A stretch of 64,000 bases of DNA, taken from NCBI RefSeq assembly GCF_009914755.1, contig NC_060931.1; one strand, written 5' to 3'. Positions within the stretch are counted from its first letter, which is position 1. Every line of letters starts with the position of its first letter. The DNA comes from the human T2T-CHM13v2.0 reference genome, Homo sapiens. Below are positions 1 through 9,054 of this stretch, piece by piece. The notes beneath the pieces are model-generated. The model saw only the letters and a list, made by a program, of their open reading frames with translations. It did no database searches and was not told the origin of the DNA. The translations under genes and the position numbers were made by a program.

Positions 1-3000
1 TGAAATTCTTCATATGATCCGAGCGGGGAGATGATGTTACTCCTAATATCACAGGGGGTGTACACTCTCTGTAACATTCTTTGTAATATCCAAGGGGGGA
101 GATGATGTTACTACTAATATAGCAGAAAACGTACACTCTCTGTGATATGCTTGGTAATATCCAAGGGGAGAAATGATTAATTTCGCAGGGGGTGTACATC
201 CCCTGTGATATTTTTCATAATATCCAAGGGGGTAGATGATGTTACTCCAAATATCGCAGGGGGTGTACACCCTCTGTGATATTCTTTGTAACATCCCAGG
301 GAAGAAATTATGTTACTCCTTACATCGTGTACACTCTCCGTGATACTTTTCGCAATATCCCAGGGGGCAATGACATTACTTCTAATATTGCAGGGGGTGT
401 ACACCCTCTGTGATAGTCTTTGAAATATCCAAGGGGGGAGATAATGTTACTCCTAATATCGTAGAGTGTGTACACCCTCTGTGATATTCTTCCTAATATC
501 CCAGGAAGAGATGATGTTACTCCTAATATCGCAGGGGATGTACACCCTCTGTAATATTCTTGGTAATATCCCAGGGGGGAGATGATATTACTTCTATTAT
601 GGCTGGGGGTGTACATCCTCTGTGATGTTCTTTGTAACATTCCAGGGGGGAGATAATTTTACTTCTAATATCTCAGGGGGCGTACACCCTCCGTGATATT
701 TCTCGTAATCATTTTCAAGAAAGGAGATGACATTACTTCTAATATCGCAGTGAACGTACACCCTTTGCGATATTATTCATAATGATGTCCAAGGGAGGAG
801 AAAACATTACTTCTAATACCTCAGTGTGCATACACACTCCATTATATAATTCATAATCATGTCCAAGGCAGGAGATTACATTACTCCCAATATCTCAGGA
901 GGTTTATAATATCGCAGTGGGCATACACCCTCCGTGATATTATTCGTAATGATGTCCAAAAAGTAGATGACATTTCTCTTAATATTACAGTAGGCTTAAA
1001 CCCTCTCTGATATTGTTCGTAATGATGTCCAAGGGAGGAGATGACATTACTCCTAATATCGCAGTGGACGTACACCCTTTGTGATATTATTCATAATAAA
1101 GTCCACGGGAGGAGATGACATTACTCCTAATATCGCAGTGGGTGTAAATCCTCTGTGATATTATTTGTAATGATGTCCAAGGGAGGATATGACATTACTC
1201 CTAATACCGCAGTGGGCATACACCCTCTGTGATATTATTCGTAACAATATCCACGGGAGGAGATGACATTACTCCTGATATCGCAGTGGGTGTACACCCT
1301 CTGTGATATTATTCATAATATCCAAAAAAGGAGATGACATTACTTCTAATATCGCAGTGGATGTACACCCTCTGTGATATTATTTGTAATATGCAAGGAA
1401 GGAGGTGATATTACTCCCAATATCCTACACACCCTGTGTGTACACCCTCTGTGGTTATATTTGTAATATCCAAGGAAGGAGATGATATTACCCCTAATGT
1501 TTTAGTGGTCGTACACCCTTTGTGATATTATTGGTAATATCCAAGGAAGGAGATATTACTCCTAATGTAGTAGTGGGTGTACACTTTTTGTGATATTATT
1601 CGTAATATCCAAGGGAGGAGATGATATTACTCCTAACATCGTACACACTTTGTGTGTACACCCTCTGTAATATTATTCATAATATCCAAGGGAGGAAATT
1701 ATACTGCTCCCAGTATCGCAGGGGGTGTACACTCTCTGTGATACTCTTTGTAATATCCAAATGAGATGATATTACTCCTAATATCGTGCTGGGTGTACAC
1801 CCTCTGTGATAATATTCATAACATCCAATGGAGGAGAGGAATTACTCCTAATAATGCAGGGAGTGTACACCCTCTGTGATACTATTTGTAATATCCAACA
1901 GAGGACATGATATTACTTCTAATATCACAGAGGGTTTACACCCTCTATGATACTATTCAGAATATCCACGGGAGGAGATGATGTTACTTCTAACAGCGCA
2001 TGGGGTGTACACCCTCAGTGATACTATTCTTCATAATATCCAAGGGAGGCGATGATGTTACTTCTAATATTGCACAGGGTGTACACCCTCTGTGATACTA
2101 TTATTCGCGATATTTAAGGAAAGAGGTTATGTTACTTCTAATATCGCATGGGGTGTACACCCTCTGTGATACTATTATTCATAATACTTAAGGGAGAATA
2201 TGATGTTACTCCTAATATCGCACGGGGTGTACACCCTTCATGATACTATTATTCATAATGTCTCAGAAAGGAGATGATGTTACTGCTAATATCGCATGGG
2301 GTGTACACCCTCTGTGATACTATTATTCATAATATTTAGAAAAGGAGATGACGTTACTCCTAATATTGAACAGGGTGTATATTCTCTGTGATACTATTAT
2401 TTGTAATATACAAGGAAAGATATAATGTTACTCCTAATATCGCATGGGACGTACACCCTTTGTGATGCTATTATTCATAATATCCATGGGAGGAGATCAT
2501 GTTCCTTCTAATATCACATGGGATGTACACCCTCTGTGATGCTATTATTTGTAATATCCGAGGGAGGAGATGATGTTACTCCTAATATTGCATGGTTACA
2601 CCCTCTGTGATGTTATTGTTCATAATATCCAAGGGAGTAGATGATGTTACTTGTAATATCCCACGGAATGTACACCCTCGGTGATACTATTATTCATAAT
2701 ATCCAAGGAAGGAGATTATATTCCTTCTAATGTCACAAAGGTGTACATCCTTGGTGATATTATTATTCATAATATCCAAAAAAGAAGACTATATTATTCC
2801 TAATATCACAGGGGGTTTACACCCTTAGTGACATTATTCATAATATCCATGGCGTATGATGACATTGCCACTAATATCACCGTGGGTGGTCACCCTTTGT
2901 GACGTTATTCATAATATTCATGAGAGATAATTATATTGCCACAAATATCCCCATGGGCGGACATTATGTGACATTATGTCACATAATGAGGTGACAATAT

Positions 3001-3090
3001 GTCACCTCTGTGACATTATTCGTAATATCCAAAGGAGATGATGATGTTGCTCCTCGTGGGTGGACTCCCTCTGTGATACTTTTTGTAAAG
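1..3090. repeat. SATR1/SATR2-type tandem satellite, ~43 units of ~71-77 bp; probably continues left of the window
   Basis: Recurring unit ~AATATCCAAGGGAGGAGATGATRTTACTCCTAATATCGCAGGGGGTGTACACCCTCTGTGATATT(AT)TC(A/G)T, with GTACAC cores about every 71-74 bp. Matches the primate SATR family from recall. Units decay at 2820-3090. Confidence 0.9.
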
Positions 3091-3645
3091 GAGGATTATA
3101 GAGTGAGCAATATATTTTTATATATTTGTTGAGGGTCCCTAGCAAATATTATAACATCTGAACTATGAAAGCCTGGATTGACAACTAGAATTTTAAATAA
3201 CACTTGTCTTATTCACAAAATGTTATAAACCTTAAGATGGAAAAATATAAAATGCTTTGACATTACCTAAAGAAGCATGAGCTCTTGTTAGGTATATGAT
3301 GGTGGCCCTGAACTTGAGCCGACATCTATAATCCCTTTTATCAATCAAAAAGCCATGTTCTTTTATATGGCATGCAGACTATTAAAATACGAAAATGTGA
3401 TAATGGATAAGCAACTAACACAAAGCCCCCACACTTCAAATACTGTCCTGGATTGATGAGGGAAGACTGGTTGGTGTGGGGGTCGGGGAGAATTCAAATA
3501 TTTATCTGCAATCCTAATGGTTAAAATTTTACCAGGAACAGACCTGCCACTCTCTTGAAATACTGTCTCTGAGATTAACGTTAAGAACAGCATCATCTCT
3601 GTTGAAAGGCTACATTCCCTTATGATGCTGATTTTTTTTTGTATG

Positions 3646-3946
3646 TTTTTGTTTTTTGTTTTGTTTTGTTTTGTTTTGAGATGGAGTCTTGGCCAGCTGG
3701 AGTGCAGTGGCGATCTCGGCTCACTGCAACCTCCGCCTGCCAGGATCAAGCGATTCTCCTGCCTCAGCCTCCTGAGTAGCTGACACTACAGGCACGTGCC
3801 ACCACGCCTGGCTAATTTTTACATTTTTAACAGAGACAGGGTTTCACCATGTTGGCCAGAATGGTCTCCATCTCCTGACCTCGTGATCCACCGCTTCAAC
3901 CTCCCAAAGTGCTGGGATAACAGATGTGAGCCACCGCACCCAGCCT
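3646..3946 (-). mobile_element. AluS (Sc-like)
   Basis: Full dimer on the minus strand with a (TTTTG)n tail; ctcctgacctcgtgatcc. Confidence 0.9.
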
Positions 3947-7395: not shown

Positions 7396-8427
7396 CTGAT
7401 CATAGAGAAGGAAATGGGTGTGGCAATGTATCCCCAGATGCTACACCAGCCACTTTTTCTTTTAACTAATGATTAAGACAGAGAGAAGGTAAACTCTGAG
7501 AAGACGTTAATTAGGAAGGCCTGGAGAGTGAAGAGGGCAAAGATCTTCTACAAGGAGCTCAAATTTGGGCTCTAGAAAGATGTGTGTTAAGGGGCAAGTT
7601 GATGGCTTGGGAGCAGAAGGATTCATTTAAACATTATTCGGACAACAGGATGTGTGCATGGGTTTGTCTTCACAGAAGTTATCCTTATCACTCTCCATCT
7701 GTTACCTAAAGATCAATCTTTGGATTAGAGCTGGTCTACAAGCATCAAAATGGAGGTCATCAAAATATAATTCTGCTGGACTGGAGAAAGGTGAAACTCA
7801 AGCATCTGCTACATGGTTAGCTAACCTGTAGCAAAAGAATCAGTGAAAACTGAATAAATATTCTAAGAACCAATCTCAAGAAACAATTCGTTTCAGTGCA
7901 CATAAGAAAACAAAGAATAATATGACACATTCTTACCCATTAGAAGTGTAGCATTTATTCAGTAAACATTTGTGGAGTGCCTCCTTTACGCAAAGTATGC
8001 AGGGGATAAAGAGGGCAAGCAAGTTCCCTTCCCTTAAGGACCTCAAGGATCCCACACTCTACACAGAGAGAGCTCTAAACAACTAACTACAATAAAATGT
8101 AGATAGAGGAAAGTGCAATCAAAGTGCATCTTCACATAAAACAGTCTTTCTATGGCTTGCATAATGGAATGCTTGGATCTAAATCTCTTTAAAAGCGAAA
8201 GCAATAGGCAGTCTGCTTCTGAGGAGACAGAATTTTAATACTATTAGCATCAAAGGGCAGTTTTTATATGTGTCCAGCCCAGAAAGCTTCTAACAGCACA
8301 CATACAAGGTCTAGCTCAAGCTCCTCATCTCCAAAAACCTTTCTCTCCATTTACTGAATGTCTACAAAATTTATTAGTTGTTCCTCTTACCCTGACATGT
8401 CACATATCATGGTGTTTACATAGATTT

Positions 8428-8718
8428 GTTTTGTTTTTTGTTTTTTTTTGACAGAGTTTCTTCACTCTGCCGTCCAGGTTGGAGTGCAGTGGCATGAGCT
8501 CAGCTCACTGCAAACTTTGCCTTCCGGGTTCAAGTGATTCCCCTGCCTCAGCTTCCTGAGTAGCTGGGATTACAGGAGTGCACCACCACACCCAGTTACT
8601 TTTTGTATTTTTAGTAGAGATGGGGTTTCAACATGCCTGAACTCCTGACCTCAGGTGATCCACCTGCCTCTACCTCCCAAACTGCTGGGATTACAGGCAT
8701 GAGCCATAGCACCCGGCC
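8428..8718 (-). mobile_element. AluS with a small internal deletion
   Basis: Alu dimer; TSD tttacatagattt at 8415-8427 and 8720-8732. Confidence 0.9.
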
Positions 8719-9003
8719 CTTTACATAGATTTTTTAAAGTAGTTTCAGGTATTATCATTCATACTTGATTTATAAACTCTTTGACAGAAGGGACCATGTA
8801 TCTTGTATCTTGCACTTCTTTTGATTCATTTACTTAACAGCTACTTATTGAATGCCAACTCTGTGCCCAAGTATCAATGTATTAACAGCTACCCAATTTT
8901 GTAAAAAGGGTATTGGGGCTGGAAAATATGAAGAACAGCTCCCCAGAAGATTCCATGTGACAGCCTATGAGCAAGGAGATCAGGACAGATAGAAAAAGGT
9001 ATT

Positions 9004-9054
9004 TACACCCCCTGCGATATTGGGAGTAATATCATCCTCTCCCCCCTGGATATT
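9004..9054 (-). repeat. Solitary SATR half-monomer, inverted relative to the 1-3090 array
   Basis: Reverse complement is AATATCCAGGGGGGAGAGGATGATATTACTCCCAATATCGCAGGGGGTGTA, i.e. the array unit up to the centre of its palindrome. Confidence 0.9.

What the first reader, a model, noticed from the sequence alone, without database searches (positions are those of the whole stretch)
1..9054. ZNF655 gene fragment bracketed by inverted SATR sequences: candidate satellite-mediated gene capture
Seen: SATR array (1-~3090, one orientation), then ~5.9 kb containing intron-bearing ZNF655 exons, then a lone SATR half-unit in the opposite orientation (9004-9054). No other SATR sequence was seen in the remaining 55 kb. 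Known: ZNF655 lies in the 7q22.1 ZNF cluster, and SATR1/2 repeats are associated with primate segmental duplications. Inference: the genomic (not retro-) copy was inserted or carried between inverted SATR ends, like a foldback/composite element. The satellite would then be an active participant in duplicative transposition rather than a bystander.
Basis: partly seen in the sequence, partly recalled or inferred. Interest (0 to 1): 0.85.

Follow-up and report, generated by a model that had tools for sequence, protein, structure and literature searches.

The report
ZNF655 gene piece beside satellite array
An old 5.7-kb genomic copy of the end of the ZNF655 gene sits exactly at the edge of a 20-kb satellite array, closed by a flipped half repeat; it looks like a one-off break-repair scar, not a mobile element.

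Summary
Window 1-3088 is the last 3 kb of a 20-kb array of a 71-74-bp satellite, SATR1 by a published miRNA annotation. Window 3089-9003 is an intron-bearing copy of the ZNF655 3' part from 7q22.1 (93.5% identity counting substitutions only). Window 9004-9054 is an inverted 51-nt part-unit. No other satellite lies in the window.

The half-unit is absent from the parental intron.

One key prediction fails. The parent carries an 11-kb array of the same satellite 5.9 kb downstream, in the same relative orientation.

That parental array was probably not copied along with the gene piece. The array beside the fragment has no close paralog (76% or less), and the parental spacer is missing.

My best reading is that the fragment was integrated about 25-30 Mya at the degenerate edge of an older array, in one complex repair event. 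One junction lies at the centre of the unit's hairpin-forming palindrome. The two satellite ends are in register.

A composite or foldback mobile element is not supported. There is one such locus, the arms are 20 kb against 51 nt, and none of the other arrays checked has this architecture.

SATR satellites at duplication integration points are already in print, so interest is modest.

The parts
1..3088 (+). Proximal 3 kb of a 20-kb SATR1-type satellite array (chr7:7175037-7195088). Units are 71-74 bp, all in one orientation within the window, and the last ~160 nt are degenerate.
   Evidence: TRF. HMM unit map. MIR3683 lies in the same array 5.8 kb upstream of the window and is published as SATR1-derived (PMC3059204, passage seen).
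3089..9003 (-). Genomic copy of the ZNF655 3' part (donor chr7:100809723-100815457). It holds the last zinc-finger coding exon, the 3' flank and upstream intron/exon sequence. This is the homologous core of pseudogene LOC100131257.
   Evidence: blastn. MAFFT pair: 5215 non-Alu nt at 93.5% identity, K2P 0.068. C2H2 zinc-finger Pfam hits on the 389-aa open frame at 5512-6681, minus strand. The parental frame is 462 aa.
3622..3951 (.). Alu shared with the parental locus, so older than the duplication.
   Evidence: It lies inside one continuous HSP, 3089-5361. It is masked in the hub table.
8433..8719 (.). Alu inserted into the copy after the duplication, with a target-site duplication of about 13-18 bp.
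   Evidence: The parental stretch 100810001-100810018 is matched by both flanking HSPs. The direct repeat is visible.
3088..3089 (.). Junction between the array and the ZNF655 3' flank, with 0-1 nt of microhomology. The array stops at unit phase 56.
   Evidence: Side-by-side junction sequences. Alignment to the unit consensus. The last 10 nt were placed by eye against the 71-bp TRF consensus.
9004..9054 (-). Inverted 51-nt part-unit. Its inner end is at the dyad centre of the unit palindrome, where 3 nt (TAC) are shared with the ZNF655 intron. Its outer end is at unit phase 55.
9055..9095 (.). Start of the 7p21.3 flank, followed by an Alu at 9096-9411. The stretch beyond that Alu (9405-10640) is single-copy apart from an interspersed-repeat tail at 10505-10640; 9055-9095 itself was not searched genome-wide. 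No satellite and no ZNF655-locus similarity.
   Evidence: Own-genome search of 9405-10640. nhmmer with filters off. Local alignment scores no better than shuffles.

Best explanation
About 25-30 Mya a 5.7-kb piece of genomic DNA from the 3' part of ZNF655 (7q22.1) was copied and integrated at the decayed proximal edge of an older SATR1 satellite array at 7p21.3. The integration was a single complex break-repair event, either end-joining of fragments or replicative template switching. That event also left a 51-nt consensus-like satellite piece in inverted orientation on the far side of the insert. The satellite acted as the acceptor: its unit is a hairpin-forming palindrome, and one junction lies at the dyad centre. 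It was not a carrier or transposon end.

Shown: the donor-copy relation, both homology ends, the junction sequences, the array's extent, and the lack of close paralogs for the adjacent array.

Inferred: that the array was there first, that it was one event, and that hairpin or palindrome breakage was involved.
For: 1. Donor and copy. Window 3089-9006 matches chr7:100815457-100809723 and nothing else in the genome apart from Alus.

2. Age. K2P is 0.068 over 5215 non-Alu nt. I compare this with a recalled human-macaque divergence of about 0.065.

3. The array beside the insert was not co-copied. The last 789 bp of the array match the parental array at only 73%, and its own array at no more than 76%. 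The best of 134 tiles of the whole 7p21 array against the parental array is 81.6%. The parental spacer is absent from 94 kb around the site.

4. Yardstick for co-copied arrays. Arrays that did travel with the spacer module (unique part 90% identical) still reach 84.5%.

5. The array edge is decayed, as at a true array end.

6. Junctions. There is 0-1 nt of microhomology at the array/fragment junction. There are 3 nt at the fragment/half-unit junction, which lies at the centre of the 12-nt perfect palindrome of the unit.

7. Hairpin potential. A unit of the same subtype folds as single-stranded DNA at -16.4 kcal/mol, z = -6.0, with 0 of 200 shuffles as good.

8. Both outer flanks of the block are single-copy 7p21.3 DNA apart from interspersed-repeat stretches; the first 41 nt of the right flank (9055-9095) were not searched.

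9. Literature. SATR1/SATR2 are reported to mark the point of duplication integration at 8p23.1 (PMC5088589, passages seen).
Against: 1. The parent has its own array of the same satellite 5.9 kb downstream, and the copy keeps the parental gene-to-array orientation. That would be a 50% coincidence under this reading.

2. Window 1050-1700 and parental 100828.8-100829.5 kb are reciprocal best matches at 80-81%. That is slightly better than either has within its own array, and better than any other locus (74% or less). Some shared array ancestry therefore exists.

3. The array end (phase 56) and the flipped half-unit (starting at phase 55) are in register, with a chance of about 4-7%. This points to the half-unit being the broken-off neighbour of the array end. 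Yet the half-unit is of the GGGGGG subtype and near-consensus, unlike the 2 kb of array next to the insert.

4. No outgroup genome was available, so the empty site was not seen.
Confidence: 0.5

Rival explanations
1. Co-duplication. One replicative event (MMBIR/FoSTeS-like) copied three pieces of the same 20-kb 7q22.1 neighbourhood into 7p21.3. The pieces were part of the parental array, the ZNF655 fragment (skipping 12 kb of spacer and proximal array), and a 51-nt inverted patch from the array as a junctional templated insertion.
For: The parent has the array in the same relative orientation. Window 1050-1700 and the parental 100828.8-100829.5 kb domain are reciprocal best matches. The half-unit is 49/51 identical to units of the parental proximal domain. 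Microhomologies are short, 0-3 nt. The in-register satellite ends are natural if both pieces were neighbours in the source.
Against: Array identity to the parent is 73% next to the insert and at best 81.6%, against 93.5% for the fragment. Arrays known to have travelled with a 90%-identical spacer still reach 84.5%. The 7p21 array is larger than the parental one, 20 kb against 11 kb. The order of its subtype domains relative to the gene is reversed. The half-unit is equally close (49/51) to units of the 7p21 array, and within one mismatch of units on chr9 and at chr7:101.2 Mb.
Confidence: 0.2
2. The inverted part-unit was already there. SATR arrays often end in, or contain, short blocks of flipped units. 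The fragment simply landed at such a flip junction, which is itself a fragile palindrome.
For: Orientation flips occur in all 4 loci with flips listed: chr4 has 2, chr7:101.2 Mb has 3, chr9 has 1, and 7p21 has 3. A duplicated module on chr1 and chr20 has 36 units flanked by 2 flipped units on each side. The macaque T2T preprint describes conserved inverted SATR1 blocks inside array cores (passages seen).
Against: The in-register relation of the two satellite ends would be coincidence. A terminal unit at a decayed array edge should not be near-consensus.
Confidence: 0.15
3. Two steps. The fragment first inserted between the array end and the flank in the opposite orientation. A later inversion then flipped the fragment together with the last 51 nt of the array.
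For: The in-register satellite ends are the classic footprint of an inversion breakpoint inside a repeat unit.
Against: The second inversion breakpoint would have to coincide, to the base, with the fragment/flank junction. The flank shows no similarity to the parental sequence beyond the fragment (score 18 against shuffles of 17.6 +/- 2.4). The half-unit subtype differs from the adjacent array.
Confidence: 0.07
4. A composite or foldback-like element with inverted SATR ends carried the fragment, so the satellite acts as transposon termini.
For: Satellite lies on both sides in inverted orientation. Xiao/DA elements with SATR-HERVE-SATR flanks and a changing core of captured fragments are in print (PMC2700803, passage seen).
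Against: Only one such locus exists, and the fragment has 2 copies in the genome. The arms are 20 kb against 51 nt. The donor ends are not at satellite. I saw no target-site duplication. Of 4 other arrays, 0 show a unique fragment closed by an inverted part-unit, and the one internal gap, on chr9, is an interspersed repeat with 40 or more copies. Of 5 further fetched half-unit matches, 0 are solo.
Confidence: 0.03

Closest known systems
Segmental duplications integrating at SATR1/SATR2 satellites (8p23.1 REPP; Mohajeri et al. 2016, PMC5088589)
   Same: A genomic, non-processed duplicate whose integration point is marked by SATR satellite. The acceptor DNA is repeat-rich.
   Different: This one is small (5.7 kb against hundreds of kb), intrachromosomal (7q22.1 to 7p21.3) and single. 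It is not part of a core-duplicon network. Its junctions are resolved to the base and include an inverted 51-nt satellite piece.
Xiao and DA composite elements with SATR-HERVE-SATR flanks (Ji and Zhao; PMC2700803)
   Same: Non-satellite genomic fragments lie between SATR-containing flanks.
   Different: Xiao and DA have long, conserved flanks on both sides and about 30 copies. Here there is one locus, a 51-nt right 'flank', and no sign of spread. Presence of HERV-E was not tested.
Macaque SATR architectures with truncated gene duplicates (ZNF669L, SH3TC1L) and inverted SD spacers (bioRxiv 10.1101/2025.08.04.668424)
   Same: A truncated (zinc-finger) gene copy sits directly beside SATR arrays. 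Inverted arrangements occur around the arrays.
   Different: In macaque the gene copies lie in spacers that are amplified with the arrays (17 and 76 copies). Here the copy is unique, and the spacer module of the parental locus was not copied.
Palindrome-mediated breakage (PATRR-type) and microhomology-mediated complex rearrangements with small inverted junction inserts
   Same: One breakpoint is at the centre of a hairpin-forming palindrome. Microhomologies are 0-3 nt. A short inverted piece lies at a junction.
   Different: The palindrome is only about 40 nt per unit, not hundreds of AT-rich bases. The comparison rests on my own knowledge of those systems, not on a call.

Membership tests
Segmental duplication (duplicative transposition of genomic DNA) | At least 1 kb of non-repeat paralogy at 90% identity or more | tested here: met
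   5215 aligned non-Alu nt at 93.5% identity counting substitutions only. blastn gives 89.3-91.5% with gaps counted.
Segmental duplication (duplicative transposition of genomic DNA) | Genomic structure kept (introns and resident repeats), not a processed copy | tested here: met
   Homology is continuous over 5.7 kb, including a shared Alu and non-coding sequence around the zinc-finger exon.
SATR1 satellite | Match to the Repbase/Dfam SATR1 consensus | not testable with these tools
   No repeat library was on hand. Indirect support: MIR3683, placed by the hub table inside the same array, is published as SATR1-derived. Assignment of subtypes to SATR1 or SATR2 stays open.
Composite / Xiao-DA-like element | Conserved SATR-containing flanks on both sides | tested here: not met
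   The left side is a 20-kb array. The right side is 51 nt followed by unique DNA.
Composite / Xiao-DA-like element | Several copies sharing the same junctions | tested here: not met
   The fragment has 2 places in the genome, the parent and this copy.
Composite / Xiao-DA-like element | HERV-E between the SATR blocks | not tested
   No ERV library search was run on the array region.
Foldback transposon | Long terminal inverted repeats of similar size, plus target-site duplication | tested here: not met
   The arms are 20 kb against 51 nt. I saw no shared flank motif in the sequences printed. That was inspection by eye, not a formal test.
Processed pseudogene | Intronless copy with a poly(A) tail | tested here: not met
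   Intronic and flanking homology is present.
Simple inversion with one breakpoint in the array | The two satellite ends are in register, and the other breakpoint lies in sequence continuous with the inverted segment | tested here: inconclusive
   The register is met: phase 56 against phase 55. Continuity of the flank with the parental sequence is not met.

The most novel reading that the evidence does not exclude
SATR1 units are small hairpin-forming palindromes that break at their dyad centre in the germ line. The broken array then captures ectopic genomic DNA, preferentially from another SATR-bearing locus with which it pairs. The ZNF655 fragment with its in-register, flipped 51-nt piece would be a base-resolved fossil of such a capture. 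The same process would explain why SATR satellites mark duplication integration points and carry truncated gene copies in primates.
Probability: 0.2. Interest if true: 0.55.

Novelty: new member of a known kind. Interest (0 to 1): 0.3.

Why it matters
The locus gives base-level junctions for one small, old duplication that landed at a SATR satellite. The published cases are large and complex, with breakpoints placed only to the repeat class. If the palindrome-centre junction and the in-register flipped piece recur at other SATR borders, they would point to a concrete breakage-and-capture mechanism for why these satellites attract duplications. On its own it is a single fossil event in a non-coding pseudogene, with no evident function.

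Tried and rejected
1. ZNF655 homology beyond 9054, as the RefSeq span 2989-23988 might suggest. None was found in window 9055-26000 against 70 kb of the parental region. The only low-copy hits were an interspersed repeat at 10655-11327 and a 26-nt chance match. The same repeat also matches window 52466-53157.

2. The idea that the flank after the half-unit is the parental sequence beyond the fragment, as a simple inversion inside a longer duplicate would give. Local alignment scored 18, against shuffles of 17.6 +/- 2.4. Rejected.

3. Satellite continuing past 9054. nhmmer with filters off found nothing significant.

4. Assigning the half-unit to a source array. It is 49/51 to units in both chr7 arrays. 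It is within one mismatch of units at chr7:101.2 Mb and chr9:14.98 Mb. No assignment is possible.

5. Paralogs of the outer flanks near other arrays. Both flanks are single copy apart from interspersed repeats.

6. The 5.3-kb gap inside the chr9 array as a second 'captured fragment'. It is an interspersed repeat with 40 or more scored copies at about 90%.

7. Orientation flips always sitting at the palindrome centre. They do not. The 9 flips listed have varied phases.

8. An Rfam scan for a mir-3683 family, to tie the array to SATR1. No such hit appeared, only an SRP (Alu-like) match and a Y RNA match.

9. A fuzzy-regex scan timed out and was replaced by blastn-short.

10. Earlier findings of this scan were not open.

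A 5-locus subset was examined instead.
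Full report
**What is there**

The window is T2T-CHM13 chr7:7192001-7256000. Tandem Repeats Finder reports 71-74-bp periods across window 1-2963. I built a profile HMM from 40 units of the window. I ran it over 94 kb (30 kb upstream plus the window) and 70 kb of 7q22.1.

The window's satellite is the last 3,088 bp of a 20-kb array, chr7:7175037-7195088, with 254 unit hits. 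The orientation blocks run +, - (2.7 kb), +. The window part is all one orientation.

The only other hit in the window is at 9001-9032 on the opposite strand. BLAST extends it to 9004-9054.

The hub table places MIR3683 5.8 kb upstream of the window, inside this array. A 2011 paper lists hsa-mir-3683 as derived from SATR1 (PMC3059204, passage seen). I could not test the SATR1 name directly because no repeat library was available.

**The gene fragment**

A search of the window's own genome with window 6500-9600 found only one non-Alu partner, at chr7:100.81 Mb. Against the fetched parental region, the homology is in three minus-strand pieces:
- window 3089-5361 to 100815457-100813183
- window 5363-8432 to 100813061-100810001
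- window 8720-9006 to 100810018-100809723

The break at 8433-8719 is an Alu present only in the copy, with a target-site duplication. The Alu at 3622-3951 is shared with the parent.

The minus strand carries a 389-aa open frame (5512-6681) with C2H2 zinc-finger Pfam hits. It corresponds to the parental last coding exon, which is 462 aa from stop to stop. Several finger cysteines and histidines are lost in the copy.

The copy is therefore genomic and truncated at an intron. Counting substitutions only, 5,215 non-Alu positions are 93.5% identical, K2P 0.068. From my recalled figure of about 0.065 for human-macaque divergence, this places the event near the ape/Old World monkey split.

**Boundaries**

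Homology begins at 3089 and ends at 9003-9006. The parental intron reads straight on with no satellite.

Window 9055-26000 has no further similarity to the 70-kb parental region, apart from an interspersed repeat at 10655-11327. The RefSeq pseudogene span to 23988 therefore does not reflect ZNF655 homology.

Both outer flanks of the block are single copy apart from interspersed-repeat stretches; on the right I searched 9405-10640, not the first 41 nt.

The parental locus has its own array of the same satellite, at chr7:100821397-100832531 plus a few units at 100834828-100835235. It lies 5.9 kb beyond the homology end and in the same gene-to-array orientation as in the window.

The 5.4 kb between (100816016-100821368) is a spacer module. 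It has paralogs at chr4:173131367-173136833 and chr9:14986275-14991209, each lying beside a SATR array with the same nearest-block orientation. These spacer copies differ by K2P 0.10-0.11. They are therefore older than the ZNF655 copy, and the parent very likely already had its array when the fragment was copied.

**Was the array copied along with the fragment?**

Probably not.
- The spacer is absent at 7p21.3.
- The 789 bp of array touching the fragment have no close relative anywhere. The best matches are 76% within its own array and 73% in the parental array.
- Of 134 tiles of 296 bp across the 7p21 array, the best match to the parental array is 81.6%.
- As a yardstick, arrays that did travel with the 90%-identical spacer still reach 84.5%.

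Against this, window 1050-1700 and parental 100828.8-100829.5 kb are reciprocal best hits at 80-81%. That is better than either finds within its own array, and better than other loci at 74% or less. The two arrays therefore share some older history.

The order of subtype domains relative to the gene is also reversed between the loci.

**Junction anatomy**

The array/fragment junction has 0-1 nt of microhomology.

The fragment/half-unit junction shares 3 nt (TAC). It lies at the centre of the unit's 12-nt perfect palindrome. That core sits inside a near-palindrome of about 40 nt.

A unit of that subtype folds as single-stranded DNA at -16.4 kcal/mol, z = -6.0. A unit of the subtype next to the insert does not (z = -0.2).

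The array stops at unit phase 56, and the reverse complement of the half-unit starts at phase 55. The last 10 nt of the array were placed by eye against the 71-bp consensus. If flipped back, the half-unit would therefore continue the array seamlessly. Two random phases would agree this well about 4-7% of the time.

This is the footprint of an inversion or of a flipped broken-off piece. However, the half-unit is near-consensus and of the GGGGGG subtype. It is 49/51 to units in both arrays, with 33 genome matches at 3 or fewer mismatches against 0 for the control. The adjacent 2 kb of array is another subtype, and its last 160 nt are decayed.

The flank after the half-unit is not the parental sequence beyond the fragment. 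This rules out a simple inversion inside a longer duplicate.

**Other arrays**

Orientation flips inside SATR arrays are common: 9 flips across the 4 loci. A duplicated module on chr1 and chr20 has 36 units flanked by 2 flipped units on each side.

None of 4 other arrays (7q22.1, chr7:101.2 Mb, chr4, chr9) shows a unique fragment closed by an inverted part-unit. The one internal gap, on chr9, is an interspersed repeat. All 5 further half-unit matches that I could fetch lie inside arrays.

**Reading**

The best-supported account is a small duplicative transposition from 7q22.1 that integrated at the decayed edge of an older SATR1 array. It happened in one complex repair event, which also placed a flipped 51-nt satellite piece on the far side. 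I put this at about 0.5.

The rivals are:
- co-copying of array, fragment and patch from the parental neighbourhood by template switching (0.2)
- a pre-existing flipped terminal unit (0.15)
- insertion followed by a later inversion (0.07)

**Comparison with what is in print**

I saw passages only, not whole texts.
- SATR1/SATR2 mark the integration point of a 746-kb duplication at 8p23.1 and define the Xiao core (PMC5088589).
- Xiao and DA have SATR-HERVE-SATR flanks around a changing core of donor fragments (PMC2700803).
- In macaque, SATR arrays are flanked by inverted duplicated spacers holding truncated ZNF669 and SH3TC1 copies (bioRxiv 10.1101/2025.08.04.668424).

Searches for LOC100131257 returned 9 papers, of which 8 were listed and seen in the listing only; all are expression, association or review papers by title. 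A search for ZNF655 together with SATR returned 0 papers. A search for SATR1 together with palindrome returned 1 paper, the miRNA paper. None of these searches turned up a description of this locus or of the junction features.

**Verdict**

This is a real, cleanly bounded structure. It is a new example of a known association, with an interesting but single junction pattern. Interest is 0.3.

Noticed in passing
L016:4118-4199 (chr7:7186118-7186199), 5.8 kb upstream of the window: The annotated MIR3683 lies inside the satellite array. Its hairpin (-16.7 kcal/mol, z = -3.8) is made of two neighbouring palindrome halves of the satellite, so it is a by-product of the repeat's symmetry. It is published as SATR1-derived and possibly human-specific (PMC3059204).
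   Followed up: partly
L012/L013 (chr7:100816016-100821368); L020 (chr4:173131367-173136833); L024 (chr9:14986275-14991209): A 5.4-kb spacer module is shared by three loci at K2P 0.09-0.11. In each it lies beside a SATR array with the same nearest-block orientation. This is a small duplicon that travels with the satellite.
   Followed up: partly
L015 (chr7:7180222-7180633): A 413-bp extremely AT-rich stretch, rich in ATTAAT-type motifs, sits exactly at the minus-to-plus orientation switch inside the 7p21.3 array.
   Followed up: no
L031 (chr1:127800810-127803799) and L032 (chr20:30213301-30216278): There is a 2.7-kb block of 36 satellite units flanked by 2 flipped units on each side. Sixteen of the 33 pattern matches share one identical 51-mer: these two sites, one on chr3, 12 on the acrocentric chromosomes (13, 14, 15, 21, 22) and one on contig C24. 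This points to a pericentromeric/acrocentric duplication family.
   Followed up: partly
L013/L017 (chr7:100832500-100834700): A different tandem repeat with no similarity to the 7p21 array directly follows the parental SATR array.
   Followed up: no
window 29775-29883 (-): There is an Rfam Y RNA match at 59 bits (gathering score 38), not listed in the hub's gene table. It is probably a Y RNA pseudogene.
   Followed up: no
window 19969-20116 (-): A Metazoa_SRP match just above threshold (71.4 against 70 bits) lies inside a masked repeat, so it is probably an Alu-related sequence. It is 371 bp downstream of the RefSeq 'silencer' at 19430-19598.
   Followed up: no
window 2989-23988 (hub annotation of LOC100131257): The annotated single-exon pseudogene span is 21 kb. 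ZNF655 homology covers only 3089-9006. The annotated end at 2989 lies 100 nt inside the satellite.
   Followed up: yes
L016 (chr7:7189585-7190238) and L023 (chr9:14977658-14982933): Interspersed-repeat insertions interrupt the arrays. The chr9 one has 40 or more scored copies at about 90% identity. The arrays therefore accept ordinary retroelement insertions.
   Followed up: partly
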